Source of the DNA: Tricharina praecox
Lineage: Eukaryota
Direction of reading: 5' to 3'
Assembly (NCBI RefSeq): GCF_024521635.1
Contig: NW_026250404.1
Location: 744,001 to 808,000 of the forward strand
Length of the DNA stretch: 64,000 nt
Made by a program: the position numbers and the translations under genes. Below are positions 13,499 to 62,529 of this stretch, one piece after another (position 1 is the first letter of the stretch; the number at the start of each line of letters is the position of its first letter). A model generated the notes under the pieces. That model was not told where the DNA came from, did not search any database, and saw only the letters and a list, made by a program, of their open reading frames with translations.

Positions 13499-14773
13499 TC
13501 ACCAGCAGAGGGACACGCTGTGGCTACCAACCGGAGGCAAGAACTGGTGCGGGTAGACCTGTCCAACGGGGAGGTCCCGATGCTGCTGCTGCTGGGGCTG
13601 CGGCCATTCGTTCGTGGCTTGGTGCTGGTGGGGCTGGTGCTGGTGCGGCTGGTGGGACTGCGGTTGCTGGTGGAAGGAAGAGAAGTCGGGGAATGTGGGG
13701 CCTCGGGCCGGATTGCGATTGGGACTGTGCGAGTGATGGCGGCTCAACGGTTGCGAGTAGGAGTGCGAGTGCCTGATGGTGGGCTGGATGGTGCCTGAAC
13801 CGGGTGGGATGGACTGGTAGGCTGCGGGGGATAGTTAGTAGACTACTCGGCGGAAGGAAGAAGAAGAAGAAGAAGGGAAGGAACAGCGACGTACCGGTTA
13901 AGGTCGAATCCCCACGTGGCTGGCCACGTCTCTTTCGGCTCTCGAGCTGACCATTGTACTGTTTGATCAACGCCACGGCGACATTGACCTCATCCTGTTG
14001 CGTCTGGATCCCCCAGAGCGCATCCCTGACTTTGCAGCGCGCTTGGTAGTTGTCGTCTACACCCTGTGGCTGGTTGGGACAGGTCCTTTCGCCGCCCTTC
14101 TTTGTCTGGAGATGGCGGGTTTCCAACGCGAGACGCGTGAAGATTCGCTTACAGGTGGAGCATTGGAACGGTGAGAATTCCATGTGCTCTTCGATCAAAT
14201 GCTCCCTATTACACGCCATCGTGTTAGATTCAGACCGCGCGTTGGAAAGGAGGGGAGGAGACGACGGGAGAGTCGGTGGTCTTGAGGCAGGTGGGGGGAG
14301 GCAGGGTGGACTTGCCTCATGGTTGATGGCAGTGACGCCTCACTAGTACACGGCTGGCCGTTCTTCGTGAATGAACATCGAAGCAAAGCGCATGCTCCGG
14401 CAGGCGTGACGAGGTGGTGTTTACCGGCCTTCGAGACACGATTGAAGGGCCTGCCGGGTTTGAGACGTTTATTTGCAGGCAGCTGGGTTGATGGCTGGTG
14501 TGGCGGTTGCACTTGGGGACTCGACTGAGGGCCGCCGATATTATCGTGTTGCGAGTAGTTAAAAGTGGCCGGCAGGATAGCACTCCGACAGCTTTCAGGA
14601 ATACCAAAATCTATGTCTTCCGTAGGGGAGTGCTGTGGTGGTGAGGCGGACCCGTAGTCGTCGCCAGACGCACCGCCGTCGGAATACGTCTGGTAGAAGT
14701 GTACGTCCTCTTCCTCCTCCGTTGCAAACGATTGAGGGTGGTTCATGCTCGTATAGTCGTGGTGTGTCGTCAT
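13499..14773 (-). CDS. Zinc-finger protein ZF1 (C2H2 + C2HC-like fingers, Q/H-rich C-terminus)
   Basis: Minus-strand exons 14773-14316, 14205-13895 and 13821-13499. Intron 1 (14315-14206) is GC-AG (AG|GCAAGT..TCTAAC..TAG); intron 2 (13894-13822) is GTACGT..ACTAAC..CAG. Spliced product: RCSFTKNGQPCTSEASLPSTMREHLIEEH-MEFSPFQCSTCKRIFTRLALETRHLQTKKGGERTC. Start codon uncertain. Confidence 0.75.
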
Positions 14774-17404
14774 TATTGAGGTATCCGGGAACGTGGTTGG
14801 TCTCGCCGGGAGTTCCGCGCTTCTTGCGCGAGTCCTTAGGGTAGTATCACTGTGGTGAGTTTGATCCCCTGACGACACTCCTGGAAAGAGATGCTCCCAA
14901 AAGGCTGGATGTGAATCCTATAAGTCAATGTCTGTCTTGCGGCTCATCATCAAGGGGGGAGGCTGGCGCCGCCTTGGACAGGATAGTGAGGAATGGGAAC
15001 GAACCGGTTGGTGGATTATGAGCAGGTCGAGGAGGGCCGGATCCTTGCGCCATACAGTCCAAATGAATCCAAAGACAAGAAAGTTTGCCTGGTGTAGGGC
15101 AGTAGTAAACAGTGGGATACTGGAGTATCAATGTAGTTCTGGCTTCAGGTTGTGTTTCTGGACGAAAAGGACTCCAGGAGCGCCGGTTTATAAAAAAAAC
15201 CAACACTCCGACCTCTAAATCGACAGCGTATCTTGAAGAAAGACATAAGTGGTCGCCCTTCCAAAAGCCTCGCGTATCTTTTGAGCCGCTTCACCCCCTT
15301 CGTGTATGAATTTGCTTGCCGGTGCATTATGTGCTTCTAGAAGCGGACCTATCAAGGTCGGTACCCTTGTATCGGAGGGATGCCACACTTGGATGTATGC
15401 CACCACACCCTCCAGAAGGGGTACATCATTCAGCTGATGTCGAGGCGTGGCTGGTAGGTTCTACATACGTTGGCTTTTCTGGTGGGGCCATCTTGAGAGG
15501 ATTTTGGTGTTTTCTTTTTTTCTTCTTTTTTTTGTCGCGCTCTCCAGATCCATGTTTGGCCCTGCAGTTCAATGCGGCTCTTTCTCGATGTACTCCAGTC
15601 GGACATCGATGTCACATTTGCTATGATGCCCTCACAGATATTGGAGCGCACCACCTCCCGGCACCGAGCTTCGGGTGCGGCAGTCCATACGTAAGGATAC
15701 ACCATCTGCATCCAACGGTGATTCGAATCCCTCGTCCGAACGACACGACCCTGGGTGGGTTCATTGCGCACCTCAACACAACGTGCGATATCGATTGACG
15801 TGATGTCTGTCTCCCGGGCCCATGAATCCACTCATGCAGCATCACATCTGTATCGCTGGTGGGCGGACAGGGGTGGCGGCCATGGGCGTGAGTTCGCCGC
15901 TGAGCTGGACTATAGTAATTGGAGCTTCCCCAATCGAGCGGACATATCTGCAATTCTTTGACGTCAATTTTTGCGGGCTCTCTCGCTGTCCAAACGGGGG
16001 AAGACTGAAGAAACCACGATGGTGGATGGGGGCGAGCGTGGCTCAATGGAGCTCCGTGGTCTCGCGCGGCAACGGCCATCAGCGCTGCGGGTGGTTCTCT
16101 GTTGATGCAACGCATAGATAGCTACGGCCCGGGACTGTCGGCGAACGCCGAGCCACAGCCACGGTCCAGAGGCCGGACAGTGGGAGTACTCTGCGTAGGT
16201 CCGTAGGTACGTAGGCGTGCGGCTCTTAAGCCTTTTGAGGCCCAGACGGTACTCTAACAGAACAAACGTCCCGAGTTTCGAGTCGAGGGCTGGGATGATG
16301 TCCATCGATGTCGACGGCACGCACCAGACGAAAATTTGATTCGCCACCGGACCGACTGTTACCGTACCGTTGCGAGAGACAGCTGCAGCAATTATTGGCC
16401 GCTGTGGGCAGGCTCGGTCATCGAACAACGCATCAGCGTCAGGATTGGCAGCGAGACCGCTCGAGTGCGTACATGGTGGTGTCGACCAGAAAAAAGATTG
16501 ATCGCCTACCCGGCCTTTGCGGCTCCGCGGTAAGCATGATTCGCTGGCCGCAGCTCGAGGGCAAGCAACAGTGCGTTTGTCAAGTGGCACGCCAGGTTGT
16601 CTCCGCTTGGGAGCCAGTGGCAGGGCGCAACAGGGGCCGAATTCCTCGCAAGCCTATGGCGGAGGCAATATCGGTGGGTCTGTATGGTATGCAGAGCAGA
16701 GTCACTGGCGCTAGGGTTCTTCAGGGATTCGGATTCCGGTTTATCGCGATCGTGAGCTTGGATGCGGCTCTGAAGAGGCAGAAAAAGGAAGTGAGGACTG
16801 GCGGTATGTACGAACACGATGAGCCGGGGTGGGAGGGGTGGATACCCACGTATGTAAGTCGATAGTTACGCGTGGGGTGGCATCGTCGACTGTCGAGGTC
16901 TCGCCAGCTGGTGCTGTTAGGTACTGCATGTCGGCAAGGTCGAAAGGGGATCACGATCGCACGGAATCGCAGAGCAGAGCCTCCGAGCTTCAAACAGACG
17001 GGGGGAAACAAGTGGTGTCGTTGGTCCGGCCCTCGGGGAGGGCGGGGGGGCCATTTTGTGATTGGCCACGCAGAGCCGCATCAAGTTAAAAGCCGAAGGG
17101 GTGGTGGTGTGTGCAGTGCACTCGTGTATGGTGGAGAATGTATGTGGATACTCTATTGCAGATCATGAGCACGTATGTAGGTGGGGGATGTATGGATGTA
17201 TGGATGTAGGCCCCTCATTCTCCGTGAAGAGCCCCGCATGGGGTGGTGGTGGTGGACTGTGGTAGCACGACGAGAGCTTTGACGCACGCCTCACAGTCTC
17301 ACTTCCCCTCCTCTCCGCATTTCGTTTTTCACCTCGCACTGGCCATGCGCGAATAGAGCAATAATCGCCATCAGCTGCCGGTCCGGCGGAGTAATGTCAC
17401 ATCG

Positions 17405-18578: not shown

Positions 18579-20300
18579 ATGATGGCGTCGTCTCCGCGCG
18601 CAATTGTCGCACCCCCCGATAGCCCTCCGGACTGGTGGATGCTCGACATCCAAATGAAGATATTCGAGTTCATATACCACGTCGTCGTGACCCTGGGCGT
18701 GGACTCCGCCCTCCTAACCTCTTCCTCCCTCGACACGCTCCTCGACGACCCCAAGCTGGACTCGGCCATCCAACTGGTGTACAGAAGGCTCCGCCTGCCC
18801 GGATCGCGCGGCGACCCGCCCCACCGTACGGCGTCGGAGTGGCACCACGACAAAAGAAAGATACTGGAATGCCTGGTACCGATTCACCAAGAACAGTCAC
18901 CCTATGAGCCAGCAGTCGATGCCGCCGAGATCCGACCTTTCAACACCCCTCAGGCGTCGGACAATAGCTATCAACTCTGGGTCACACTGGGGATAACCAC
19001 GGGATACACCGAACAACAGCAACATCAACAACACCAACAACAACACCAACAACAACAACAACGACCGCTACAACCATACCACACCCCACGGACGCCCGGG
19101 AACCTGCTAGACCACGACCTTGCGTCATCGGAGACGGAGACAGCCTCCGAAAACACCGTGACTCTGGGTGATTCACAGGCGCCTTTCAGCCCTGCCGATT
19201 CGGTCTCGCGAGGGAGGCGAAAGCGATCTACCAGCTCCATGCAGAACGAGAAGCCCGGAAAACGCACGCGGGGCGGCCCTCAGGATCACGTATGCCCCGC
19301 GTGCGGAAAGAAGTTTCCCTTCTTGTCCAAGTTGAAGGACCACCTCAAGACGCATTCTACCGAAAAGGTTCTCGGTTGTCATCTCTGCTCGAAAAGGTTC
19401 AAACGATCTCGCGAAGTCAATGCACACCTCAAGTCGGTACACAAAATTGACATCCAAACAATCGAGCCGTCGTCAGCACCCTCAATTTCGTCCCACTCGC
19501 ACTCACCGCTGTCAATGAACCCCGCAACCCCGGCCTCGCTTCCGACGCCTCATTCCCTATTCCCACCCACGCCAGGTTCGAGTTCATCATACCAGCCACC
19601 GCCACCTCGGCCTTCTCCTAGATCGACACTTCTTCTCCCGCTTTCGGGACCCTACCCCACTCCCGGACAGTTCGACGAATCAACTCCGGCATCAACCGCT
19701 GGAACCGACTACCGGGAGACGCCAAGCGCATACACCCCCCATAGCTATCAATCATACGATGACGACCGTATGCACGGCTACCGAGAGGCAAGCTATCGGG
19801 GGGATGGAATGGAAGACAATGATGGAGGCGGAAAGTCGGCGGCACGCGATAGTAACAGTCCCGAGCACCTTGCCGACCGTGTCGAGCGGATAGACATGAA
19901 CCGCGACAACTTGAAGCTGGCGCCCCTGTGGAAACTCGCGCCGTCGTCGTCCTTTGCGGCTCCGACACCTCAGAACACTCAACCGCAGCAGGAGCCCTTA
20001 CCGTCCATCGACGAGATCCAAGGCCTTTCCCCTGTTCCTGTCCCTGTTCCCGTTCCCGTTCCCGCTCCAACTCCAGTTCCAACGGAAGCGGAAACGGAGA
20101 CAGAGACGGAAGTGGGAGCGGAAGTAGAGACTCTGGGGAACAAGCCTGGGTTCGAAACGTCCTCACGGGCATCTCCGTCGGAATCCAGCAAACCCCCATC
20201 TGACTGTGGCTCTGACACCGAGTCTGTTACGGAGGCAAAACTGCAGAAGAAGGCTATTCAGGATCATGAAGCCCATGCGCTCTTGGGGGCCAGCTATTGA
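18579..20300 (+). CDS. C2H2 zinc-finger transcription factor ZF2 (two canonical fingers)
   Basis: Single long ORF with HVCPACGKKFPFLSKLKDHLKTH-STEKVLG-CHLCSKRFKRSREVNAHLKSVH (TGEKP-like linker), basic NLS-like RGRRKR..KPGKRTR, polyQ and Pro/Ser-rich regions. Alternative ATG at 18537. Confidence 0.9.
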   Translation: MMASSPRAIVAPPDSPPDWWMLDIQMKIFEFIYHVVVTLGVDSALLTSSSLDTLLDDPKLDSAIQLVYRRLRLPGSRGDPPHRTASEWHHDKRKILECLVPIHQEQSPYEPAVDAAEIRPFNTPQASDNSYQLWVTLGITTGYTEQQQHQQHQQQHQQQQQRPLQPYHTPRTPGNLLDHDLASSETETASENTVTLGDSQAPFSPADSVSRGRRKRSTSSMQNEKPGKRTRGGPQDHVCPACGKKFPFLSKLKDHLKTHSTEKVLGCHLCSKRFKRSREVNAHLKSVHKIDIQTIEPSSAPSISSHSHSPLSMNPATPASLPTPHSLFPPTPGSSSSYQPPPPRPSPRSTLLLPLSGPYPTPGQFDESTPASTAGTDYRETPSAYTPHSYQSYDDDRMHGYREASYRGDGMEDNDGGGKSAARDSNSPEHLADRVERIDMNRDNLKLAPLWKLAPSSSFAAPTPQNTQPQQEPLPSIDEIQGLSPVPVPVPVPVPAPTPVPTEAETETETEVGAEVETLGNKPGFETSSRASPSESSKPPSDCGSDTESVTEAKLQKKAIQDHEAHALLGASY

Positions 20301-22484
20301 TGTTGTACTCCGGTCGGTAGTCTGTCATTCAAGCACGCGTTCCCATAGATCCGTAGTCACATGGCTGATCATGTTTTATTTTTAGTTTCTTTTTCTATTC
20401 TGCAGCAAAACAACTTTCATCCAAAGCAGGGCGATTGGGATAGTGTGTACCGAATCATCTTCCATGGGGGTTCTGATCTTGCAGGTTTTCGTTGTAAATA
20501 ATTTTTGTGTCTACGTTGGCTGTCATCATTTTGGATCATTATGGATCCCTTTTCTCTTTATCCCCTTTTTTCTTTTTTCTTTCTTAGCTTGGCTTTCCGT
20601 CACCTGAATTGTATCACATACTGCAAGTCTCTAGAACGAACTGGAGAACGAGGGACACGGGCCGGGGTGAACGGCCAGGAGGGACTCTCGCGGGGTAACG
20701 GTGGCGTTGGACCGTTCTCTTGGGGCGGGTGATGGCGATGATTCACGCATGCACACGGCCTTGCATGCCTCCCTCCCCCTCCCCCCATGTACATACATAC
20801 CTCATACCTATCTCTTTCGTTCTCCACATCCTGTACTTTCACATCCAAGGTACCCTCCATCCCCCCCGGCTGAGCCTTATTGAACTCTCGCGAAGGAGGT
20901 AGTCACACGTAGGGATCAGTTGTCAGCCTGTGCACGTGTACTCGTGAATGCCCAGTCGTGTGCTCGGCCTCGCTGTGCGCGACGGGGCTGAGGATACGTG
21001 GGGAATGTGAGCATCTGGCTGAAAGTCCGCGCGTTGAAACACATGAAGTCCCCATCTAGAGTAGGTGCTTGCTAACCGATGGACTCGAGTGAAGATGGGC
21101 GTTCCACTACGGCACATACCATGACAGTCTTCCTTCCTTCCTTCCTCCCTAATTCCGGCCAACTCACTCATCGATCGATCTTCATTCGTGTTCAGCTACA
21201 TACAGACATACCCCATACATTCCCCAGCCCCACCGGGGAACCCAACCTCAGACATACAAATTGACTGACTGACTCGAATGCTCCGCCGTTAGTTCCCATA
21301 CCCATCCCGTATAGCCATCGCTATGTAGAGTACGGTATGATGGCTATGACTCGACCAATGTTCGACTCTCTCGGCTCATGGGTTAGCTGTGTGCTCTAGC
21401 TAGCTAGCTCGGTAGTCGCGCACCGCAGCGTGATCAGCAGCTGCACAGGCAAACAAGCAAGCAAGCAGGGCAAGCAGGCAGAACAGCGGGTACCCACTAA
21501 GCGGAGTCGCCTGGGAGGTATAGGCGATGGGCCGGGGATGCAGCACTCTGACTGGCCGCTGGCCGTTGTTGGCGTGTGAGTTTTCGAAGTCGCTTGGTGG
21601 TCGGGTCGCCCGTGACGGACACTGCCTGCGCCTCATTTTTGTTGCGCGCGCACAACGAAATCATCCCTGTCCGGCCAGTGCCCACCCCACACCCCAGCCA
21701 GCCAGCTACATACTCACGGTGGCTGTAACGAAGAGTAAGAAGAGTCAGTCAATCATGCCAGTCATGCAAAAACTTTGTCACCTACCGAAAGAGCGTGAGG
21801 GAGCGGTTAACAGCCTTGCGGAACTCACTAGGCAGGGCAGGGGAGGGGGGAGGGGGGCCGACTCCGACTACCTACGACTCCGACTCCGACCCAAGGCAAC
21901 CAACGAGGTGAAGTGTGCGAGACTGCCCGCAACATGGCAAGGGCTGCCCGCGCTCATTCTTCCCCCCATACATCCATGGGAATGGTGGTGAGAGCCGAAA
22001 ACCTCTAAGCTTTTTGCGCAGCATCCACTGCACTGCACAGCGGTGACATACGGCGCCATTCCCGTGCGTGCGTGCTGGCACCCAGCCAGACATATAAACT
22101 TGACGGTGACCTTCTTCAGTCTGCCAGGCCTTATCATTCCCACCCCACCCCTTCCTCCTAAGCCGCGATCTAATCCCTTCCATCCCGGATAGAGACGCCA
22201 GATCTAGTATTCCCAAGTCACTCCGTTGTTGATTCAAGAACTTTATTGCGGCTTGCGATTTTTTCGTGTGCTTCCGGAAAGAAAACAGCCTTTCCATCTG
22301 CCCGTTGGGGATCTCCCGCGCAGCCAACCCGGATCCCGCAGGTAGCCCGCAGTGCAGCCCGCATCCCACCCGCCCCACCGCCCATCCCGTCCGGGGTCAC
22401 CACAAAACTCGTCCCGTCTCTCGCCACCACATCTACTTCCTTTTAGACTCACCCTTTGGTATGTTCTCATACTACCAACCTATC

Positions 22485-24621
22485 ATGGCTTCCTCGTTAT
22501 TCAGCTCTGACCTTTCCGTCCACGATAGTCTCCCACTGTTCGACCACATGTCCATCTCCGACACCCGGCCGCCCTGGCTGCCAAACAACCTGGAGACCCT
22601 GGTGTTCGAAAAGGGCCTGACCATCCGCATCAACAACCTCCGCGAGAGCCGGTATCACTGCGAGATCGTTGGGCAAGTGCTGGACGCCGTGCTGCAGCAG
22701 CTGCCCGCGTCCCCGCCGCCCAGCGACTTCGAGGTCCGCATGGCCCGCCAGCACCTGGCCGTCGAGCTCCAGCACATCCTCAAGAAGTGGTGCGAAGAGG
22801 GCCTGGCTAAGACGCTGGGCGGCTCGTTTCTCGGCATGATCTCGACGGGTATGGAGGGAGTCGAGGGGCTCGGCGGTATGGGCTCCGTGGGTGGCAGCAC
22901 TGGAGGTAATGGCGGCGGGAGAAAGGACCTCCTCGTCCGCTCGTTCCGGCCGCCGTCCTTAAGCCCGTCCAGCCCGTCCCTTGTGCCGTCGTTCATCGAC
23001 CGGCCGGATCTGCAGGTGTATCGTGGTGGCGGTGGCGATAGCACGTCGTCGGCGCTGGTGCCCATGAAGCGCGCGTCCGACGACGATGATCAGGCGCTGT
23101 CAAATAAGTCGGGGAAGTTCTATACGGGCGGAGAGGCTGGTGGCGAGAAGGATTTTCGCTGCCCGTATAATGTTAGAGATCCGTCGTCCCATACCGAGTG
23201 TGCCAATAAGAGGTTCCCGAATCCGAGGAAGCTGAAGTATGCCCCCCCCGTATGATAGTGCGTGCGGATGCAGAGACTGATATTCGCGCGATAGGGAGCA
23301 TATCTGGAGATTCACCAAACCGTTCAAGTGTCCCACCTGCAACGAGGTACGGCGACCCTATTCCCCTCCGTTGGAGTTCCTGTCCTGACTGTCTCCCAGG
23401 GCTTCGGTAGGGAGAAGACCAAGGCGATCCACTGCCAGCAGCGCAAGGTCAAGTGCGTGCCATCGGAGCGAGACGAGTACGACAACAGCTACGAGCAGCA
23501 CCGAGACCGCCAGATCGACCGGGCCAAGAACACACCCGAGATAATCGGCATCTTTGAGGAGTATGACAGGAATTGTCAGTCCACATCCACATGTCAGTAA
23601 CCAACTACCATTTCTACCTCAAAAAAAAAGACGTCACCGTTGAGAAAAAGAAAAAAAAGATAAAACAACAGTCCTCGGCGAATATTTTCCGGAATTGCAG
23701 CCGCCGGCTGTTGGTTTCATCGCCCGAGATTGAAGAGACGCGGTGATGGTTGGGGTGGGGTACCGAGAACTGGGACTTGCTGACATCGGTGTGGCAGTCC
23801 TGACGACTTACGGCCCCAACCCAGATGATGCCCCGGAGACGGACAGCCCGGGATCTGACGACTCGGGGAGCATGACTCCCGTCGTCACCACTCCCGTCGT
23901 CACACTCCCTAGCCAGCACTGGCCGCAGATACCTCAGCGGAGTCCCGCGCCCATCCTCCGGATCCCCCAGCCAGCCGAGAAGTCGGGCTACCCGACGCCG
24001 CCCGGCGACCGAAACCCGTTCAGCCCGCACCACGACATCAGCCAGCAGTCGCTGGGCATGGTGGGCGAGTGCAACAGTCCGTTCCAGTCCGGGCCCATGG
24101 TGGGATTTCCCGAGGCGGGTACAACCGCGCACGACAACAACCCGTTTAATACCGACGGCATGTTTTCGCCCTCGTCCTCGGCACAACACCAGCAACAGCA
24201 ACAGCATGGCTTTCCCCTCCACGCCCTCGATATCCCCGAAATTGTCATCTCGGAGATGAACCCTACTATGAACAGCCCAATGACCCCAGCAGGCTTCAGA
24301 CCTTCCATGTTCCCCTTGGAAATGGACATGAGCGGCTCCTCGCCCACTCAGAGCCGGAGAACGTCCATGGCGTTGGCTATGGGCTCTCGCCATCCCCCAT
24401 CCCGCCAGCAACAGCAGCAGCAGCATCAGCGCCAGCAGCAACAGAACCAGCAACACCAGCATCAACACCAACACCACCAACAACAACAACATCAGCAGCA
24501 ACAGCAAAAACAGCAGCAGCAGTACCAGGAACCGGACGCATTCGATAGTATGCAGCAGGGAGAAGTCTACTCGCAGGGCTATGGCTCGATTCCACCAGTT
24601 CGGTTCCGCATGAAGTTTTGA
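22485..24621 (+). CDS. Zinc-finger protein ZF3 (atypical C2H2/C2HC fingers, polyQ C-terminus)
   Basis: Exons 22485-23236, 23295-23346, 23400-23574 and 23798-24621; donors GTATGC, GTACGG, GTCAGT with CTGAT/CTGAC branch sites; frame maintained. Spliced: FRCPYNVRDPSSHTECANKRFPNPRKLKEHIWRFTKPFKCPTCNEGFGREKTKAIHCQQRKVKC. Confidence 0.85.
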
Positions 24622-25781
24622 TCTCCACCTACTCTGTTTACGGGGGGATCAGCCTCCGCAGCGGCCCTCTCTCTCTATTCGGAAGAGCTGCGTGTAAAAG
24701 TACTCCTACTTATCTTTTCTTTTTCTTATTCTTCTTAAGTGCAGGTGGCGTTTGTATATTCGGCTGGAGTTTTTTCTTTTATTTTCATGTTTTTTCATTT
24801 TCTCATTTTCTCATTTTCTCATTTATTTTTCTAGCGATGGTCTTTTTGCGCGTTGATACCCTTTAGGCTTGATGTTGTGATACTTTTAGCGTTTCTTTAT
24901 GATATGATATGTTCTCACGTGTGGTTTTATGACGATGCTTCCTTTTCATGATAGTACTTGGGCATGTATTCTAGACGGGGTGCTTTACTTGTGCGCGATA
25001 TGGGCATTGGGAAGTGAAATAAAGGTGCAATACTACTACAGTAACTGGTGCCGTCGGTCATGTATGTGCGCACGGTGGCGCAGCTATGCATAAATCACCA
25101 AGTGCCCGGCGTACCAGTACGCTAGATATGGTATGTATCGGCTACGACGCTCGAATATTTTGCCGGATTTTAGCGGCCTAGAGTGCGGTACGGGAGATCA
25201 TCGAACGAACGAACGAACGAAGGTTTGCGGGACTAAGTACATGCCTGGACTGCCGATGCGCTGGCTGTTGTTGTGGTTGTGGTTGCTGTTAAGGTTGTGG
25301 TGTAGTTGCGGGTTTAGTTAAAGGTATGGTTGTGGCTGTGACTGTGCAGCCTGTGCTTTCCTGCCGAACGGACCGGTACCGATAGGTAGAGTAGGCGTTC
25401 CTAGGTGGTGGGTTGTGGAACAAACACCGCCCTGTGTTGCAGGCTTGCAGTGCAGTGCAGTGCAGTGCCATTTTTGCGAACTTTGCGAACATTGTTCCGT
25501 ACGATTGCGAACTTTGCCGGGTTTCCATACATGCATGCAATTTGCGAACTTTTGCTCTAGCGATTGCGAACACTGTGAACTTTTGGCTGCTCTGCGAACT
25601 TTGGCTGCGTGTGCGCAAAGTTAAAGCACAGGGATGGTGCGGATAATAAGTAGAGTACGTAGGGGTTGGAAGACCTGATCAGTGATTGCACCACGATGGT
25701 TATCTACCGGATCTACCCATCCATCCTAGGCTACTCTATTGACCTGACAGCTGCGCTGGCGGTGGGAAACAATGGAAAACG

Positions 25782-25881
25782 ATCATACAATCATACAATC
25801 ATGCAATCATACAATCAGACAATCAGACAATCAGACAATCAGACAATCAGACAATCAGACAATCAGACAATCAGACAATCA
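25782..25881. repeat. 8-bp tandem repeat (AATCAGAC)n grading from (AATCATAC)n
   Basis: Directly visible, about 12 units. Confidence 0.9.
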
Positions 25882-27859: not shown

Positions 27860-28990
27860 ATACACTGTTCACTCACTCAAAGATGTGGACGGAGCCTTGC
27901 TCGGGATGGAGTCTTGCGGGTACTTACTAGTATTCAGCCATTCACAGGTGGCGATGGAGCTCTCACTGCTAATCGAGGCTAGTTTCAAAGGTGGACGAAG
28001 CCCTGCTAGGGATCAAGTCTTGCGGGTACTTATTCAGCCATTCACAAGCGACTATAGAGTTCTCACTACCGATTGAGGCTGGGTTCCAAGTCCAACACAT
28101 TCTTCGCCCAAAGATGTGGAGTCTTGCGGGTATCCATTCAGCCATTCATAGGCAAAGATGGGATTCTCACTGCCCATTGAGGCTGGTTTTCAAGCCCAAC
28201 ACACTGTTGCTCAGGGTGGAGTCTTGCGGGTGTTCAGCCATTCATAGGCGGCGATGGAGCTCTCGCTGCCGATTGAGCCCGGTTTTCCAGGCCCACCAAT
28301 TCGACCGTAGAAATTAGAATATCGGGCATTGCAACCGTTTACTCAAGGATGTAGATGAAGACCTGCTCGGAATTACTTGCGGGTATCCACTAGTATCCAG
28401 CCATTCCTGTTGGAAGGACTCGTGGAGGTGATTCACTGGAACGATCGATATGGAGAGAAGTGAAGTGTTATGTTCGGGTCTAGGGGCTACAAGTACAAGA
28501 GAGAGAGGGAGAGAGAGGGAGAGAGAGAGAAATAAACCAAACTTGGGCCCGCTACCGCACCGGATATTCCAAGTAATCACCACCGGTCCTCCGAACGGGT
28601 AGTGGACTACTCACAGAAGCACACTCGTTCCCACAATTCCTAAGCGATGATGGAGCTCTCACTGCCCATTGAGCCTAGTTTTTCCAAGCCCACCAATTCG
28701 GCCGTAGAAATCAGAATCACTGGCATTGCAACCGTCGTCCGGCTACGTAGTTCCATTCACAGGCGACAATGGAGCTCTCGCTGCCGATTGAGGGTCGGTT
28801 TCCAAGCCCAACACACTGCTCATTCACAGATGTGTAATCTTACGGGTATTCAGCCATTCACAGGCGACCATCGAGCTCTCACTAACGATTGAGGCTAGTT
28901 TTCCAAGCCCACAAATTCGACCGTAGAAATCAAAATCTAACCACCGTCCGGCTATGTAGTCCCTTGCGAGACATCAATTCCTGAGAACGA
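27860..28990 (+). repeat. Left arm of an inverted array of degenerate ~120-bp subrepeats
   Basis: Recurrent blocks CAGCCATTCACAGGCGRCGATGGAGCTCTCACT, GATTGAGGCT, CAAGCCCAACACACTG, CAAAGATGTGGA and GTCTTGCGGGTA. Boundaries approximate. Confidence 0.85.
28408..28635. mobile_element. Solo LTR (228 bp) of an LTR retrotransposon
   Basis: Ends TGTTGGAA...TTCCCACA (TG..CA, imperfect inverted termini); 5-bp TSD ATTCC at 28403-28407 and 28636-28640; internal AATAAA; splits one subrepeat unit cleanly. Confidence 0.85.
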
Positions 28991-30594
28991 TGTAGTCCCT
29001 CCAGAATCCCTTCCAGGAGTTCAACCGGATAGCATCGCTACGGAAGAACCACCACAGCAGCGGGATCTTCTGGCACCGAATTCTATCCAAAGACCCTTAC
29101 CGTACTGGTACATGTGGTCATATTTTTCTGCGGGTATCACCCCGATCACCTAGCTTCCTCGCGGAGTTTTCCAATATCCGAGGAAATCTGTGTTGTGATA
29201 CCTACAGTAGCACTACCGCTCAGATTTAAATCCAGCAGTCTCAGAGAATACAGACTTACTCTGGAATTATTTGTTTCCTTACAGACTTAATTCTACGGTA
29301 TCGAAAAGCATACGCAGTGTTGTAAAGATACGCTTACTAAAAGGCCAGAAGGACTACTGCAATTCTTCCGAAAGCAAAATATTACGCACTGTCCAGAATA
29401 CCAACGAACTACCATAGAACTACCTTATTCGCACAAAAACGTAATGCAGAGAAAACGCTGTCATGCTAATCCGGTAGTTCGTAGACTGTAGTAAAACTAT
29501 AACGACAAGAGGCCTACAGAAGAAATGCCGTGCTGAGGAGAATGCCCCGGTCACTGAATTCGGTATGCAAACGGTAGAAGCCCTCTAGTTTCTACAATAC
29601 GTGCTCTGAGGAAGACGTGCTGTACGCAAGCAAACATTTACGACATTCTTGTAGTGCAGGAAGTGCCGAGTACTTCGAAGAAATAGACCGAGTGATGGGA
29701 CATGAGGCACGAGTCCATCGCATGCGATCGCAATGGAATCGCTCTTACATCACCAGATCCCTCCGCTTTTCGCTGCCTACTTGTATTTTCCTGTGGACTG
29801 GCTTGCCCACAAACTTCCTCGGCGGAGCATGTGCGCTGATCACGTGCTCCTGCGCACATCGAGTTGCAGGCTGTGGCTGCGTCACTTGGCTATCGCACGT
29901 CGTGTCGTGGAGTCGGCTATCGGGCCTGCGGCCTTGCGATAAAAACGGGAGCCTAAAAAACGCCTGGTCACTCACTACGCAATCATCCGAACCTGTTAGG
30001 CTGTTACTTCCTACATATTTCATTTCCTGTATGTACGAAGACCAGCACATCACTGCCCTCGGAGTAACCATCCATGGCTGCTAGTACGTACGTACTGTTA
30101 CCCAATATTGAATCTGACCTTACGAAAGTAACACACAGAGAGCAGCCGCGCGATCATGGTAGTCCCTCCTCCATCCTCGGATGCTCAACCCCCAGACGGT
30201 TTGTTCACACCTGAGCCTTGCTTAAAATCACTCGCTTTTCTGGCGCGCTGTAATGCATGGATAACCAATAGCTATTCATACTACGTATCTCCTCATGAGA
30301 CGACAGTACTACCGCATGTTTTCCACCTTATACATACTTGCTATGGCAAAAACCGAGGTAAACTGACTCTAACATCCACTGTGCATTGTCTCAAGGAAAT
30401 GGCGGGTCAATACTCCAGAGTATCTTTGATTTCGAGTCGCCGCGGTATTGATTCCACGGACCTGTTTTGTTGCTGTGGGTTCTAGTGTGAGTGCTGATTC
30501 AATAGTGGAAAAGGACATCGCGATATTTGTACTCACGGATGATCACTCGTTCAAAACCAGTACAAGATGTTTTCAGTTCTGGCCAAGTATTTCT

Positions 30595-31247
30595 TGAGTC
30601 TCCGCACCACGAGTGAAAGCTCTGTCGTCGCCTGTGAATGACCGAATGGGTACTCGCAAGACATTTTGAGCAGGGCTTCGTCCACACCTTTGAGTGAGCA
30701 GTGTGTTGGGCTTGGAAGACCTGCCTCAATCGGTAGTGAGAGCTCCATCGTCATCTGTGAATGACACTGTCCTTAGGAATGATGCCTCGCATAGAACTAC
30801 GTAGGTAAGTAGCCAGACGACTGTTGCAATGCCCGAGATTCTGATTTCTACGGTCGAAGTGGTGGGTATGGAAACCGGCCTCAATGGGTAGTGAGGGCTC
30901 CATCGCCGCCTGTGAATGGCTGGATGGGTACTCGCAGGGCATCCCGAGCCGGACTTCATCCACATCTTTGAGTGGATAGTGTGTTTGGCTTGGAAGACCA
31001 GCCTCAATGGGCAGTGGGAGTTCCATCTTTGCTTGCGAATGGCTGAATACTAGTATGTACCCGCAAGATTCCATCCCGAGCAGCACTTCGTCCACATCTT
31101 TGAGTGAGCAGTGTGTTAGGCTTGAAAACCCAACATTAATCGCTAGTGAGAGTTGCATCGTCGCTTGCGAATGGCTGAATGGGTATCCGCAAGACTCCAC
31201 ATCTTTGAGTGCACAGTGTGTTAAGCTTGAAGGACCAGCCTCAATCG
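30595..31247 (-). repeat. Right arm of the inverted subrepeat array
   Basis: Reverse-complement copies of the same blocks (AGTGAGAGCTCCATCGTC, TGTGAATGGCTG, TCCACATCTTTGAGTG, GATTCTGATTTCTACGGTCGAA). Boundaries approximate. Confidence 0.85.
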
Positions 31248-31870
31248 GATGTGAATTTATATATTTGCAGGATGTTTAGCAAGACCAGACATATTTACCT
31301 TCGTCTAACAATAACAACGGTGGTAGGTACCACTTTCACGGCATTCTCGAGCTCGAGCGTAGCGTACAGCGAGAATAGGCCTTAGAAGCAGCTGCGGCAG
31401 CCAGATGCAACCAAGCTGGATACTTGGATATGGAACTGGTATCATACGTTGTACTGGTATGCATCCTCGGCCTCGCACCACCTCTCCTCGGCCTACCGTA
31501 CTACGGTATTGCCGCCGCTCTCGCCAACACCACAACCCGCACCACAACCCGCACCATCCCCTCGGCAACTCCAAGTCTCCAACACCGACACCGCCTCCGC
31601 CTGCATCTGCACCCTCCCGTGCCGACATCCGCTCGGGAACCTCCTCCACCTCCACCCTCCAGTGCCGATATCCGCTCGGAAACCTCCTCCACCCCCACCT
31701 CTCAGCGCCGGTTACATAGAGTACACTCATCCCCCGGTAGCTCACCTCCCCCGAAACCCGCGCCCCCCCGAAACCCCTCACCTCCCCTACCCTCGTAGTT
31801 ACACTCTAAGTAGAGCCCCATGCACGCCAGCGGCCAGCAGCCAACCACGCGCTGCCGCCTGCTCCCTTCG

Positions 31871-55900: not shown

Positions 55901-57175
55901 ATGGCATCCACGGGACCACCCCCGTCGCCGCCGCCAGGCTGGACCATCCTGCCGGACAATGAGTGGCTGACGCGCACGGCTGCGGTCCTGCTCGGCTACA
56001 TCCAGCCGTCGAGCCCGCTGCTTCCCGGGGAGCTGACCAAGATCGCGACGCAGTACCTCAACAGCCGGAACAGCAACAAGCTGCAGGGCTACGAGATCGA
56101 GTACCTGGAGGGGTACATCCGGAAGCAGCTGCCGGCGCTGGACCTGTCGGCGTACCACCGCGTCGGCGGCGGAGCCGGAGCCGGAGCCGAAGAGACCCAT
56201 ACCCATACCCATACCGACGCCATGCGCAGCGTCCTGGACTACTACGGCGGCGTCGTGGACCACGGTAATTCTGAGGCAAGTGCGCTCAACGCCCCAGCCC
56301 TGTGTTTTCAGGGCACCAAGGATCTAGGGATTTTCCTGCGTGAGAATGATGCGATGGATGATACCGACTACGATGACAACGACGACGGGTCGTCGGCGCA
56401 GACCGTATATAGCGAGGTGGGTACCGAGTGACCGTGGGGGAAAAAAGATACCCATCTGGCGCCAAGTGAGCCGGCTGCCGGCTGGCTGGTGGGGGAGGGG
56501 ATTCGGACCTTTACTTGGCGGGATGGATCCCGGGTAAAGGGATCACCGTTTCTCGTCAATGATACATTATGTACCTACATATGTGCCTATCGGCACATGA
56601 TGGCAGAAACTAGTACGCTAACCATGGTCCTCCACCAGATTACGAGCCAGTATGAGCTCGCCACGGTAGCAACCAGCGTCAGCGGTGCCAGCGCGTCGCC
56701 GGCCTGCAAGCGGTTCGGCTGCGGCTACTGCGGGAAGGAATTCAGCAAGCGATTCGAATTGAACCGGCACTGGATCGGACTCGCCAAGTCCTGCACCGAG
56801 CGGCTCGTCGAATTCCCTCCGTCATTGTCGCAGTGCAGCCGCTGCGGCAAGAAGACGTCACAATCCGGAACCGGCATCGACAGTATCGCCGAGCACGACG
56901 GTAATTTCGGCACTCAGGTCCGAACCGATTCCCTTCCGAAGGGGTGGAGACGCGGCTACCCAAAGCTATCGGAGCAGGAAGAGGAGGACGATTTCTTTGA
57001 ACCGACCGAGGCGGGCTATCCTTCGGCCCGGCCCACGATGTTTGCCGGCCGGTTCAGAGAGTCGGAATCGGCGGAGTGGATGCCTAAGCACGTGCAGTTC
57101 AAGCACAACCCGAACGACCGAAAGCCTGCTCGGAAGGCGGGGTGTGGTAGCGGCATCGGGGATGCATGCGCCTGA
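55901..57175 (+). CDS. Zinc-finger protein ZF6 (C2HC-like finger, N-terminal helical domain)
   Basis: GCCATGG start. Exons 55901-56416 and 56639-57175 (phase-0 intron GTGGGT..GCTAAC..CAG). Finger FGCGYCGKEFSKRFELNRHWIGLAKSC, followed by a second CxxC (QCSRCGKK). Confidence 0.75.
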
Positions 57176-61174: not shown

Positions 61175-62529
61175 ATGGATTCGTCCTTCCGTTCCAGCAT
61201 CCACCTTCACCAGACTTCCGCCGCCGACGCTTTGGAACATGCGCTTGACCGAACAGCCGCAGAGTACCAGTTGCATACACTGAACCTGCCGTCCTCGCCG
61301 CAATCCTTGGACATGCACGAGTCTAGACACCAGGCCCGAAGCTTTCAACTGTCCCATCCCTCCGTCCTCACGCCGCTGCACAGCTCGTTCGGATCTCGAA
61401 GCCCGTCCCCCTCGGCCTGGCAGCTCTGCTCGCACAACACTCCCGTCCGGCCATCTTCGCCAATCTCTCTGGACGGCCTGGAACCGTCTTCCTGCGATTA
61501 CCAGCGGCACGCCGAGTACCAGCGATATACATCGCCGCTATTGTCGGACGACTTCTCTACTTCCGAAGACCAGCTATACCCCGCGCTCATGGCTTCCAAC
61601 GGTCTAGGGACGCCGCCGGGCTCGATAAACGGGAGCACTACGGAATTGGATCGCCAGCCCCAACTCTACATGCAACACTCTACTCCCATGCCTGGCGACT
61701 ACCTGACGCCGGTGGCCCACGGCCATCCCTACGGAGACCCGACCTACGGCCGTGAAGCTCCCAGGGAGATCCATCACTCCAGAAGCGGTATGTTGACACC
61801 CCCCCACCTACGCAAGCCTGCAGGTTGCCGGTGATGCATGTGACTAACATCGGACAGGTCATTCGTCCTCCGCCCCATACGTATATTCGTCCTACGGGAT
61901 GGATCCGCGGTCGCCGCAGCCCTATCAGCCCAACGATCTGCCTCCGCTGCCTTGGTCCACGACCGTTCCAAGGAATCTCCCGCCGCCACCCGCGGTAGTT
62001 GGGCAGTACGTCGGGCAATCGCAGCAGTGGGGCGAACGAAGTCCCATCTCATACCATGACGACTTGCAGGAGAGCAGTTACCGGTGCGCCAGTGCGCGCT
62101 GCCGGTTTACGGCGAGCTCCCCGGAGCAATTGACGTGAGTAATCCACGCACCCTGGTGCATACGTACATACATTGTGTCTGACATCGCTGTTCAGTAAAC
62201 ACCAGCAAAAGCACCTAAAGATCCACCACTGCCGGTTCGCGTCCTGCTCTCGAACCGAAGGCTTCGCGACGCCCAACGACCGCGAGCGCCACGAAAAGTC
62301 CATCCACAAGATCCCCGGCTGCTACTGGAAGTGCCTCGACAACCACTGCAGCAGCTACGGCAAAGAGTTTAGCCGCCGCGATAATCTGAAGGATCACCTG
62401 CGCCGCATGCACCCCGTCCCTGAGGGCATGAGCGAGAATGAGGCCAGCGCCCTGCGCAGCAGGATGGCGGACATGTGGCGGTTTGACAAGGGAAGCGATG
62501 CGCAGGTCATGGCGGTGGAGAGAAGATAG
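61175..62529 (+). CDS. C2H2 zinc-finger transcription factor ZF7 (three C-terminal fingers)
   Basis: ACCATGG start. Exons 61175-61787, 61858-62134 and 62196-62529 with canonical introns. Spliced: YRCASARCRFTASSPEQLTKHQQKH-LKIHHCRFASCSRTEGFATPNDRERHEKSIH-KIPGCYWKCLDNHCSSYGKEFSRRDNLKDHLRRMH. Confidence 0.9.

What the first reader, a model, noticed from the sequence alone, without database searches (positions are those of the whole stretch)
13499..62529. Uninterrupted cluster of seven divergent zinc-finger transcription-factor genes over ~49 kb
Seen: after 13.5 kb, all seven credible genes (ZF1-ZF7; orientation -,+,+,-,+,+,+) encode C2H2/C2HC zinc-finger proteins with disordered Q/P/S-rich regions. 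No enzyme, transporter or housekeeping gene is recognisable between them. Outside the fingers they share no obvious similarity, so this is not a recent tandem duplication. Known: fungal gene clusters are usually metabolic and fungal C2H2 factors are normally dispersed; arrays made only of transcription factors are better known from animals (Hox, KRAB-ZNF). Inference: a candidate ancient regulatory gene complex (developmental, non-self recognition or antiviral cascade) that includes a KLAP1-like member and may continue beyond 64 kb.
Basis: partly seen in the sequence, partly recalled or inferred. Interest (0 to 1): 0.9.

Follow-up and report, generated by a model that had tools for sequence, protein, structure and literature searches.

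The report
Seven zinc-finger genes side by side
A cup-fungus (Pezizomycetes) chromosome segment carries seven unrelated zinc-finger regulator genes in a row with nothing else recognisable between them; part of the row stays together in related fungi, which is unusual for fungi, but what it does is still unknown.

Summary
Seven genes with C2H2/C2HC-type fingers lie at 13.5-62.5 kb in the stated orientations (-,+,+,-,+,+,+). No other Pfam domain passes its cut-off in 452 ORFs scanned, and the seven share no similarity outside the fingers. The zinc ligands are invariant in relatives for ZF2, ZF4 and ZF5, and the three fingers recur in the three ZF7 orthologues read. ZF1, ZF3 and ZF6 rest on motif spacing and weak Pfam scores. 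Spliced RNA-derived contigs fix the ZF3 and ZF4 gene models.

The "ancient uninterrupted complex" reading is only partly supported. ZF4 (DUF7896) and ZF5 are head-to-head neighbours in 5 of 7 metagenomic relatives (three lineages, down to about 39-45% identity). ZF4 and ZF7 orthologues are 3 protein accessions apart on one scaffold in Trichophaea hybrida and Wilcoxina mikolae. They are 26-44 apart in Geopyxis and Pyronema.

On the ZF3 side of ZF4, relatives carry an mRNA cap methyltransferase or a C2-domain gene. The window has a foldback-like repeat element there.

Best reading: a composite, with a ZF4-ZF7 core shared by at least three Pyronemataceae lineages and a ZF1-ZF3 block juxtaposed in this lineage, in gene-poor DNA. 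Function and co-regulation are untested. ZF1-ZF3 orthologues could not be mapped.

The parts
13499..14776 (-). ZF1 coding region, about 364 aa. Exons about 14776-14316, 14205-13895 and 13821-13499. The first intron has GC..AG ends.
   Evidence: Read by eye from the sequence. Finger spacings are C-x8-C-x12-H-x4-H and C-x2-C-x12-H-x10-C. Pfam zf-C2H2 15.1 bits, E 0.034, below cut-off. The leave-one-out codon score matches the other genes. No orthologue data.
18579..20300 (+). ZF2, single-exon ORF of 573 aa with two classical C2H2 fingers at 19293-19442.
   Evidence: Pfam zf-C2H2 E 6.5e-7, 29.9 bits. Five full-length relatives at 33-73% identity to the window's protein in the alignment; C253, C256, H269, H273, C281, C284, H297 and H302 are invariant.
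22000..25400 (+). ZF3 transcript. CDS 22548-24621. Introns 22458/9-22527/8, 23237-23294, 23347-23399, and 23593-23659 or alternatively 23593-23797 (335-aa or 585-aa product).
   Evidence: GT..AG joints in contigs of runs X2, X3 and X5. Spliced ORFs were computed. The finger region is atypical and has no Pfam match.
27872..31253 (.). Foldback-like repeat element in the ZF3-ZF4 spacer. Two arrays of ~100-nt tandem units in inverted orientation (27.87-28.95 kb and 30.66-31.25 kb) flank a unique centre of about 1.7 kb.
   Evidence: the repeat finder families D4, D8, D10, D13 and inverted pairs I1-I6, I8-I11 and I13-I16. TRF periods of 100-132. No Pfam hit in its ORFs.
33621..38033 (-). ZF4 transcript (DUF7896 protein). 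CDS 35240-37168 with intron 36893-36961, about 619 aa. Two 5'-UTR introns (37179-37282, 37343-37413) and one 3'-UTR intron (34954-35014).
   Evidence: CT..AC joints in X2, X3 and X5. Pfam DUF7896 E 1.6e-13. Twelve-sequence alignment with invariant Cys/His. Atlas top hits are DUF7896 clusters of Ascomycota.
38295..38565 (.). Largest of about ten collinear conserved non-coding blocks in the ZF4-ZF5 head-to-head spacer (37.4-43.2 kb).
   Evidence: blastn against L001 (68% over 276 nt) and L004; the blocks lie in the same order in the window and in the relatives.
43233..44816 (+). ZF5. Main ORF 43419-44813 plus an upstream exon of about 43230-43400. It has a two-finger N-terminus and a nearly invariant helical C-terminal domain of about 150 aa from no known family.
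   Evidence: Orthologues in L001, L003, L004, L005 and L006. Alignment A3. OrsD is sub-threshold at 19.6 bits. No Atlas hit and no PDB sequence hit.
55901..57175 (+). ZF6, about 350 aa, with intron about 56418-56638 and a single C2HC-like finger at 56705-56794.
   Evidence: Splice sites read by eye. Pfam zf-C2H2 26.4 bits on the fragment 56660-56899 and 22.9 bits on the ORF. No orthologue data.
61175..62529 (+). ZF7. Exons about 61175-61771, 61857-62134 and 62196-62529. Three canonical C2H2 fingers, the first split by intron 62135-62195.
   Evidence: tblastn of eight ZF7-family proteins, from Trichophaea, Wilcoxina, Geopyxis, two Pyronema species, Ascodesmis and Morchella plus one unnamed Logan/ENA protein. 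Sequence reads. Six homologues of 27 candidates, 65-86% identity.

Best explanation
The stretch is a real run of seven consecutive genes for small, mutually unrelated C2H2-type zinc-finger proteins in a Pyronemataceae-like Pezizomycete. It lies in DNA with about half the usual gene density.

It is a composite rather than one ancient complex.

(i) A core, ZF4-ZF5-ZF6-ZF7, is shared with at least two other genera. Within it, ZF4 (DUF7896) and ZF5 form a head-to-head pair that persists down to about 40% protein identity. The two share a 3-6 kb spacer with collinear conserved non-coding blocks.

(ii) ZF1-ZF3 form a second block. Its junction with ZF4 is specific to this lineage and now holds a foldback-like repeat element.

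The proteins most likely act as nuclear nucleic-acid-binding regulators. This is inferred from fingers, adjacent basic stretches and long disordered Q/P/S-rich tails.

My inferred reason for the clustering is that such regulator genes need large, undisturbed regulatory DNA. ZF4 has long UTRs with introns, and the ZF4-ZF5 spacer holds conserved blocks. Such genes may therefore collect and persist in gene-poor neighbourhoods, where rearrangements can set blocks of them side by side.

Shown here: gene structures for ZF3 and ZF4, finger conservation for four genes, partial synteny, and the non-conserved junction. Inferred: DNA binding, any co-regulation, and the reason for clustering.
For: - Motifs and Pfam scores for the seven genes. 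Ligand invariance for ZF2, ZF4 and ZF5. For ZF7, three fingers are seen in the three orthologues printed.
- No other domain passes its cut-off in 452 ORFs.
- No paralogy among the seven. ZF1 exon 2 against ZF6 exon 2 gives E 0.12.
- A ZF5 orthologue lies divergently next to ZF4 in 5 of 7 loci. L001 and L003 are one organism (99.7% identical), as is L002, whose hits equal L001's. L004 is a second lineage. L005 and L006 are a third (97.5% identical). Of the two loci without a match, L002 has only about 1.2 kb of flank and L007 is a 43%-identical domain-only match.
- Ten collinear conserved blocks lie in the ZF4-ZF5 spacer against L001, and eight against L004.
- Protein accessions, ZF4 orthologue then ZF7 orthologue:
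  - T. hybrida: KAF8542951 and KAF8542954, one 390,745-bp contig
  - W. mikolae: KAF8246039 and KAF8246036, one 435,497-bp contig
  - G. carbonaria: KAI5796591 and KAI5796565, same contig
  - P. omphalodes: KAI5819304 and KAI5819266, same contig
  - P. domesticum: KAI5793937 and KAI5793981, same contig
- The junction is not conserved. L001:19368-21155 is an mRNA cap guanine-N7 methyltransferase (PF03291, E 5e-90) with no counterpart in the window. L005:20570-20941 is a C2 domain. Nucleotide similarity to L001 stops at 34337. A foldback-like element lies at 27.87-31.25 kb.
- Spliced contigs show that ZF3 and ZF4 are transcribed and that ZF4 has UTR introns.
- Coding fraction is about 21%, with one gene per 7 kb. 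P. confluens has 29.2% coding and one gene per about 3.7 kb (PMC3778014, Table 1).
Against: - That accession order equals gene order is an assumption. It is supported only by three consecutive S. brunnea accessions on one 13-kb contig.
- The two proteins lying between the ZF4 and ZF7 orthologues in T. hybrida and W. mikolae were not seen, so their identity as ZF5 and ZF6 orthologues is inferred.
- Orthologues of ZF1, ZF2, ZF3 and ZF6 were not located in any named genome. ZF1-ZF3 could still lie a few genes beyond the methyltransferase or C2 gene in relatives.
- The loci reach only 10 kb from ZF4.
- ZF1, ZF3 and ZF6 have no conservation support for their fingers, and ZF3's first unit lacks a canonical fourth ligand.
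- No DNA-binding or expression-pattern data exist.
- Three spacer ORFs (41678-42076+, 46896-47240-, 47750-48307-) reach codon-score margins of 0.22-0.25, inside the range of the real exons (0.21-0.45). Small RNA-derived contigs lie at 31909-32418 and 41277-41876. Small unrecognised genes therefore cannot be excluded.
- The 'regulators need large regulatory DNA' rationale is my inference. No paper was found for or against it in two searches.
Confidence: 0.55

Rival explanations
1. The seven genes form one ancient regulatory gene complex that selection has kept together and uninterrupted because the members act in one cascade or share one regulatory landscape.
For: - Seven of seven consecutive genes carrying fingers is far beyond independent chance.
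- ZF4-ZF5 adjacency holds in three relative lineages.
- ZF4 and ZF7 orthologues are 3 accessions apart in two genera and share a scaffold in five named assemblies of four genera.
- The ZF7 family reaches Morchella, and one source names a Penicillium protein as similar.
Against: - The neighbour of ZF4 on the ZF3 side differs in all three lineages seen: ZF3 here, a cap methyltransferase in L001, a C2-domain gene in L005.
- ZF4 and ZF7 orthologues are 26, 38 and 44 accessions apart in Geopyxis and the two Pyronema species.
- There is no evidence for co-expression or a cascade.
Confidence: 0.15
2. A very old tandem array, like an animal ZNF cluster. All seven would descend from one two-finger gene by duplication and have diverged until only the finger scaffold is left.
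For: - All seven carry one to three fingers.
- The last finger often has H-x4-H spacing. The second units of ZF1 and ZF3 and the single finger of ZF6 share the unusual C-x2-C-x12-H-x7-10-C pattern.
Against: - No detectable similarity between any two, by BLASTP at E<1e-3. ZF1 against ZF6 gives E 0.12.
- Finger spacings differ and so do the families: zf-C2H2, DUF7896, and PF27716 on ZF7 orthologues.
- ZF4, ZF5 and ZF7 each have their own conserved non-finger domains.
- A planned shuffle statistic on the spliced finger modules of ZF1 and ZF3 was not completed.
Confidence: 0.1
3. Ascertainment artefact. The run looks pure only because finger motifs are easy to spot. Orphan or small-exon genes sit unrecognised in the long spacers, and one or more of ZF1, ZF3 and ZF6 are not true zinc-finger regulators.
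For: - A relaxed finger pattern matches 49 times in six frames, mostly in noise.
- ZF1, ZF3, ZF5 and ZF7 fail the local Pfam cut-offs.
- Three spacer ORFs have codon margins like real exons.
- Small RNA-derived contigs lie at 31909-32418 and 41277-41876.
- The window as a whole has few recognisable domains.
Against: - 452 ORFs down to 58 aa give no domain.
- Only two accessions separate the ZF4 and ZF7 orthologues in two independently annotated genomes. That fits ZF5 and ZF6 alone.
- The ZF4-ZF5 spacer shows collinear short conserved blocks rather than a conserved ORF.
- The ZF5 and ZF7 fingers are validated by conservation despite failing Pfam.
Confidence: 0.15

Closest known systems
Animal KRAB-ZNF (C2H2) gene clusters
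   Same: Many C2H2 zinc-finger genes lie side by side with few other genes between them.
   Different: Those are tandem paralogues with many fingers and a shared KRAB domain. Here the members have 1-3 fingers, no shared domain and no detectable paralogy. The comparison rests on my recall of that family.
Hox-type conserved transcription-factor clusters
   Same: An array made only of regulators in gene-poor DNA, with conserved non-coding blocks. A sub-block (ZF4-ZF7) seems to keep its order in related genera.
   Different: Hox genes are paralogues with deep, collinear conservation. Here order is conserved only within part of one family, and one junction is lineage-specific. No collinear expression is known.
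Basidiomycete A mating-type loci (divergently transcribed HD1/HD2 homeodomain pairs)
   Same: It is a known fungal regulator-only locus built from head-to-head pairs of unrelated DNA-binding protein genes. ZF4-ZF5 is such a conserved head-to-head pair.
   Different: No homeodomains are present. No allelic hypervariability was seen: L001 and L003 are 99.7% identical, and contigs of three runs show 0 differences over ZF4. Heterodimerisation was not tested. The comparison is recalled, not searched.
Pfam DUF7896 (PF25438) family of Ascomycota
   Same: ZF4 is a clear member, at 51 bits against a cut-off of 25. The family is uncharacterised; a full-text search for 'DUF7896' found 0 papers.
   Different: I found no description of either.
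Fungal biosynthetic gene clusters with pathway regulators, including OrsD of the orsellinic acid cluster (PF12013)
   Same: This is the usual kind of fungal gene cluster. ZF5's fingers weakly resemble OrsD (19.6 bits).
   Different: No enzyme, transporter or backbone synthase lies anywhere in the 49 kb. The OrsD score is below its cut-off of 26.6.

Membership tests
Classical C2H2 zinc finger (Pfam PF00096 / PF13894) | Score at or above Pfam's gathering cut-off (25.2 bits for PF00096) | tested here: inconclusive
   Met by ZF2 (29.9 bits) and by a ZF6 fragment (26.4 bits; 22.9 bits as the ORF). Not met by ZF1 (15.1), ZF7 (13.7), ZF3 (no hit), ZF5 (no hit) or ZF4 (a different family). Full ZF7 orthologues with three canonical fingers also fail (17.8 bits), so the cut-off is conservative here.
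Classical C2H2 zinc finger (Pfam PF00096 / PF13894) | C-x2-4-C-x12-H-x3-5-H spacing of four zinc ligands | tested here: inconclusive
   Canonical in both ZF2 fingers, the first ZF7 finger and the second ZF5 finger. Near-canonical in the second and third ZF7 fingers and in ZF4 (13-15 residues between the second Cys and the first His). Non-canonical in ZF1 (C-x8-C; H-x10-C), ZF3 (C-x12-C, with no clear fourth ligand in unit 1; H-x7-C in unit 2) and ZF6 (H-x7-C)..
Classical C2H2 zinc finger (Pfam PF00096 / PF13894) | Zinc ligands conserved in orthologues | tested here: inconclusive
   Invariant in ZF2 (6 sequences), ZF4 (12 sequences) and ZF5 (4 sequences). Present in the 3 ZF7 orthologues printed. 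Not tested for ZF1, ZF3 or ZF6, because no orthologues were retrieved.
Classical C2H2 zinc finger (Pfam PF00096 / PF13894) | Beta-beta-alpha fold and sequence-specific DNA binding | tested here: inconclusive
   The AlphaFold model of the ZF4 domain has mean pLDDT 58.9, with a hairpin plus helix in unit 1. The best Foldseek rows are tandem C2H2-DNA complexes, but at E >= 2.1. DNA binding is not testable with these tools.
DUF7896 (PF25438) | Profile score above the cut-off of 25 bits | tested here: met
   ZF4 scores 51.0 bits, E 1.6e-13. Orthologues in L001, L005, L006 and T. hybrida also pass. The Atlas top hits are DUF7896 clusters.
OrsD (PF12013) | Profile score above the cut-off of 26.6 bits | tested here: not met
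   ZF5 scores 19.1-19.6 bits over profile positions 4-38 of 114 only. Its L001, L005 and L006 orthologues give no hit.
Tandem paralogue ZNF cluster (KRAB-ZNF type) | Members are detectable paralogues of each other | tested here: not met
   All-against-all BLASTP of window ORFs of 50 aa or more finds no ZF-ZF pair at E<1e-3. ZF1 against ZF6 gives E 0.12.
Anciently conserved collinear regulator cluster (Hox-like) | The same genes in the same order across the class | tested here: not met
   Only ZF4-ZF5 (three lineages) and probably ZF4..ZF7 (two genera) keep their order. The ZF3|ZF4 junction differs in every lineage seen. The accession gap is 26-44 in Geopyxis and Pyronema. ZF1-ZF3 were not mapped.
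KLAP1-like transcription activator (Colletotrichum acutatum) | Sequence similarity to KLAP1 | not testable with these tools
   No KLAP1 sequence was available. One paper only describes it as a putative conserved transcription activator and pathogenicity factor (PMC12735693, passages read).
Mating-type-like head-to-head regulator pair (HD1/HD2 type) | Divergent pair with highly polymorphic alleles and homeodomains | tested here: not met
   The divergent arrangement is met for ZF4-ZF5. No homeodomain is present. No hypervariability: L001 and L003 are 99.7% identical, and the ZF4 pieces listed for X2, X3 and X5 show 0 differences, the only change over the transcript being a 1-base deletion in its 3'UTR.

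The most novel reading that the evidence does not exclude
ZF4-ZF5-ZF6-ZF7 would be a conserved, selectively maintained cluster of non-homologous zinc-finger regulator genes in Pyronemataceae. That would be the first regulator-only, non-paralogous gene cluster in fungi outside mating-type loci. Its oldest element would be the head-to-head DUF7896/ZF5 pair, whose products work together from a shared bidirectional control region. ZF5's nearly invariant, unclassified C-terminal domain would be the partner-binding or effector module. ZF1-ZF3 would have been recruited to the same regulatory neighbourhood in this lineage.
Probability: 0.2. Interest if true: 0.75.

Novelty: new variant of a known kind. 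Interest (0 to 1): 0.5.

Why it matters
Fungal gene clusters are almost always metabolic. Regulator-only clusters are known mainly from mating-type loci and from animals.

A run of seven unrelated finger genes, with a core kept together across genera, would give a tractable case for asking why regulators cluster. Candidate answers are shared enhancers, shared chromatin state, and tolerance of gene-poor DNA.

It also gives the uncharacterised DUF7896 family a fixed partner gene and a first genomic context. It flags ZF5's strongly conserved C-terminal domain, which matched nothing in Pfam, the PDB sequences or the Atlas clusters.

If the clustering proves to be neutral, that is a useful caution against reading function into regulator neighbourhoods.

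Tried and rejected
- **Whole genome:** none is held for this window.
- **Six-frame Pfam on long pieces:** I scanned ORFs instead.
- **RNA holders:** The look-up of sequencing runs listed no holder on record as RNA.
- **RNA cover in spacers:** the RNA-derived contig sets X2 and X3 leave bins 26.7-27.3, 29.3-31.3, 32.7-33.3 and 39.3-40.7 kb with next to no cover. Depth figures (ZF4 in the thousands, ZF3 about 45-130) cannot rank genes.
- **Exhaustive representative search with ZF2:** swamped by multi-finger proteins (23,718 hits at E<=0.001). It gave no orthologue information.
- **ZF2 homologue search:** capped at 8000 candidates, so the lack of named Pezizomycetes hits is not evidence of absence.
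- **Extending the metagenome contigs:** ZF6 and ZF7 could therefore not be sought beyond the 10-kb flanks.
- **ZF5 structure:** AlphaFold mean pLDDT 37.5, too poor for a fold search.
- **ZF5 relatives:** no Atlas hit and no PDB sequence hit for the ZF5 or ZF4 profiles.
- **ZF4 domain model:** pLDDT 58.9. Foldseek found nothing at E<=0.001.
- **Shuffle statistic for the spliced finger modules of ZF1, ZF3 and ZF6:** not completed. The ZF1-ZF3 resemblance in spacing is therefore by eye only.
- **Complex prediction for ZF4+ZF5:** not run. The alignments are shallow and I do not claim binding.
- **Earlier findings of the scan:** nothing relevant.
- **Literature:** 0 papers for 'DUF7896'. Nothing on fungal regulator-only clusters in two searches.

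Full report
**What the window is.** The window is eukaryotic DNA of about 55% G+C. No whole genome is held for it. The best named relatives of two of its proteins are Pezizomycetes of the Pyronemataceae group: Trichophaea hybrida, Wilcoxina mikolae, Geopyxis carbonaria, Pyronema, Sphaerosporella brunnea, and further out Ascodesmis and Morchella. No protein in the collection is identical to the window's own, so the organism itself seems not to be among the annotated genomes searched.

- ZF2 (18579-20300, +) is one ORF with two textbook fingers. Pfam zf-C2H2 scores 29.9 bits. In an alignment with five full-length relatives, all eight zinc ligands and an N-terminal motif are invariant.
- ZF4 (CDS 35240-37168, -) is a clear member of Pfam DUF7896, at 51 bits against a cut-off of 25. 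Its two finger-like units are invariant in twelve sequences.
- ZF5 (about 43233-44816, +) fails every Pfam cut-off; OrsD reaches 19.6 bits. Its eight Cys/His positions are nevertheless invariant in four orthologues that are only 48-71% identical overall. A helical C-terminal domain of about 150 residues is almost unchanged among them.
- ZF7 (61175-62529, +) has three canonical fingers, the first split by an intron. Its finger exon is 65-84% identical to proteins of five named Pezizomycetes genera.
- ZF1 (13499-14776, -), ZF3 (CDS 22548-24621, +) and ZF6 (55901-57175, +) are weaker cases.
  - The second finger units of ZF1 and ZF3, and the single finger of ZF6, have the spacing C-x2-C-x12-H-x7-10-C.
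  - ZF1 and ZF3 also have a first unit with a long Cys-Cys loop.
  - Pfam gives 15.1 bits for ZF1, nothing for ZF3, and 26.4 bits for ZF6 as a fragment or 22.9 bits as the ORF.
  - I retrieved no orthologues for these three.

**Between the genes.** I scanned 452 stop-to-stop ORFs against Pfam:
- 125 ORFs of 120 aa or more in the whole window
- 140 ORFs of 88-119 aa from 12.2 kb onward
- all 187 ORFs of 58-87 aa in the spacers

Only ZF2 and ZF4 pass a curated cut-off. Seven other hits are sub-threshold and look like noise. Rfam and tRNA scans are empty.

All-against-all BLASTP finds no similarity between any two of the seven. The only repeated protein-like matches come from a repeat element. 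The spacers hold simple repeats and one structured element at 27.87-31.25 kb: two arrays of ~100-nt tandem units in inverted orientation around a 1.7-kb centre, the build of a foldback-type element.

A codon-usage score trained on the genes themselves gives real exons margins of 0.21-0.45 in leave-one-out. Three spacer ORFs reach 0.22-0.25, so small unrecognised genes cannot be excluded.

**Chance.** Pyronema confluens has 25 Pfam zf-C2H2 genes among 13,369 (PMC3778014, Tables 1 and 3; I read the passages). With that frequency, two Pfam-grade members among seven neighbours is expected about once per genome. Three or more is expected 0.003 times. Seven of seven stays below 1e-5 even if 5% of all genes were C2H2-like. 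The run is therefore not a chance product under independence, provided the gene calls are right. A relaxed motif matches 49 times in six frames, so motif alone is weak.

**RNA-derived contigs.** Runs X2, X3 and X5, laid on 22000-41999, carry joints with GT..AG ends on the plus strand in ZF3 and CT..AC ends in ZF4. The DNA run X1 covers the stretch unspliced and shows none of them. X2, X3 and X5 are thus cDNA-derived. They fix the gene models as follows.
- ZF3 has four introns and an alternative acceptor, giving a 335-aa product or a 585-aa product with the Q-rich tail.
- ZF4 has one coding intron, two 5'-UTR introns and one 3'-UTR intron. Its transcript spans about 33.6-38.0 kb.
- The same two runs hold 0.77 of the sampled words of 13400-23399. 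This suggests, indirectly, that much of the ZF1-ZF3 region is transcribed.

Lack of cover in the spacers is not evidence and is listed only under Tried and rejected.

**Relatives and synteny.** A scan of metagenome contigs with the ZF4 alignment gave seven loci. They fall into these lineages:
- L001, L002 and L003 are one organism. L001 and L003 are 99.7% identical to each other and about 75% identical to the window at the nucleotide level, and L002 gives the same hits as L001.
- L004 is a second relative.
- L005 and L006 are a third (97.5% identical to each other). Their ZF4 domain resembles those of Trichophaea and Wilcoxina.
- L007 is a distant domain-only match.

tblastn of all window ORFs shows a ZF5 orthologue divergently upstream of ZF4 in five of the seven loci, with spacers of 2.6-4.9 kb against about 6 kb here. 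L002 lacks the flank, and L007 has none within 2.9 kb. The spacer holds ten short conserved blocks in the same order against L001, and eight against L004.

Nothing else of the window recurs in these loci. Downstream of ZF4, nucleotide similarity to L001 ends at 34337. L001 then has an mRNA cap guanine-N7 methyltransferase 7.7 kb from ZF4 (PF03291, E 5e-90), and the window lacks it. L005 has a C2-domain gene 9 kb away. The ZF3|ZF4 junction is therefore different in all three lineages.

| Species | ZF4 orthologue | ZF7 orthologue | Accession gap | Same contig |
|---|---|---|---|---|
| T. hybrida | KAF8542951 | KAF8542954 | 3 | yes |
| W. mikolae | KAF8246039 | KAF8246036 | 3 | yes |
| G. carbonaria | KAI5796591 | KAI5796565 | 26 | yes |
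| P. omphalodes | KAI5819304 | KAI5819266 | 38 | yes |
| P. domesticum | KAI5793937 | KAI5793981 | 44 | yes |

If accession order follows gene order, exactly two genes separate ZF4 and ZF7 in Trichophaea and Wilcoxina, as ZF5 and ZF6 do here. That assumption is usual for such submissions and fits three consecutive S. brunnea accessions on one 13-kb contig. I could not see those two proteins.

**Explanation.** The best reading is a composite.
- A ZF4-ZF7 core is shared by this lineage and the Trichophaea/Wilcoxina group. Its oldest visible element is the ZF4-ZF5 head-to-head pair.
- The ZF1-ZF3 block was set next to the core in this lineage. The junction now holds a foldback-like element.
- The proteins look like nuclear nucleic-acid-binding regulators. 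They have fingers, long Q/P/S-rich disordered regions, and basic stretches next to the fingers in ZF1 and ZF2. No binding has been shown.
- I infer why they sit together. Genes with large regulatory regions tolerate and persist in gene-poor DNA: one gene per 7 kb and about 21% coding here, against about 3.7 kb and 29.2% in P. confluens. A shared control region would also hold the ZF4-ZF5 pair together.

**Rivals.**
- The single ancient complex is weakened by the variable junction and by the 26-44 accession gaps.
- A decayed tandem array is weakened by the lack of any similarity and by the distinct families and non-finger domains.
- An ascertainment artefact is weakened by the empty domain scans and the gap of exactly two accessions. 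It is not excluded for the 45-56 kb spacer, for which I had no RNA data.

**Known systems.**
- Animal KRAB-ZNF clusters share the look, but not the paralogy.
- Hox clusters share the regulator-only content and the conserved non-coding DNA, but not deep collinearity.
- Basidiomycete HD1/HD2 mating loci share the head-to-head pair design, but not homeodomains or allelic diversity.
- Fungal metabolic clusters do not fit, because no enzyme is present.
- DUF7896 membership of ZF4 is firm. The family is undescribed: 0 papers in the full-text search.
- The KLAP1 likeness could not be tested.

**Limits.**
- ZF1, ZF2, ZF3 and ZF6 orthologues were not placed on any named genome.
- The loci reach only 10 kb from ZF4.
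- The gene models of ZF1, ZF5, ZF6 and ZF7 are by eye or by homology.
- No genome-wide test, expression series or binding data were available.
- Supplements of the Pyronema paper were not consulted.

Noticed in passing
window 27872-31253: Foldback-like element. Arrays of ~100-nt tandem units (27.87-28.95 kb) face inverted copies (30.66-31.25 kb) around a ~1.7-kb centre with no recognisable ORF. Contigs of the RNA-derived runs match the repeat units with loose ends, so other copies probably exist in the genome.
   Followed up: partly
window 43419-44813 (ZF5, residues about 280-445); L001:3189-4577, L005:5888-7252, L006:5667-7031: The C-terminal ~150 residues of ZF5 are almost invariant among orthologues that are only 48-71% identical overall. 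They match no Pfam family, no PDB sequence and no Atlas cluster, and may be an undescribed conserved domain. The AlphaFold model was too poor to use (pLDDT 37.5).
   Followed up: partly
window 23593-23797: ZF3 is alternatively spliced. The donor at 23592/3 joins either 23660 or 23798. The products are 335 aa, or 585 aa with the Q-rich tail, so the putative activation region is optional.
   Followed up: partly
window 33621-38033: The ZF4 mRNA has a 3' UTR of about 1.6 kb containing an intron (34954-35014) and two 5'-UTR introns.
   Followed up: no
window 14206-14315 (minus strand): The first ZF1 intron, read by eye, has GC..AG ends (donor GCAAGT) with a CTAAC branch site. No RNA data were laid here to confirm it.
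   Followed up: no
window 6279-12080: A large plus-strand gene just before the run encodes a coiled-coil region and long acidic A/E/V/P-rich repeats (about 1,870 aa in three ORFs). It has no Pfam match. The gene at 483-1265 is also an orphan.
   Followed up: no
Sphaerosporella brunnea proteins P0024, P0202, P0203 (KAA8892769-71): Three DUF7896 proteins of one 90%-identity cluster carry consecutive accessions on a single 13,058-bp contig. The ZF4 orthologue may be tandemly triplicated, or split into several models, in that species.
   Followed up: no
window 17408-17621, 25782-25881, 37991-38053: Long simple repeats lie in the spacers: about 69 copies of CCA (it reads as His/Pro/Thr runs in three frames), 12.5 copies of an 8-mer, and GTG/CTG runs. 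They caused false long-range 'joints' in the contig laying.
   Followed up: no
window 63050-63106 and 63682-63738: A 57-nt inverted repeat, 93% complementary, with 575 nt between the arms, lies just after ZF7.
   Followed up: no
L001 beyond 17414 / L003 beyond 17098: Two otherwise 99.7% identical metagenome contigs diverge completely about 5.8 kb downstream of ZF4. Only L001 reaches the cap methyltransferase. This could be a structural polymorphism or an assembly break at the same side where synteny with the window is lost.
   Followed up: no
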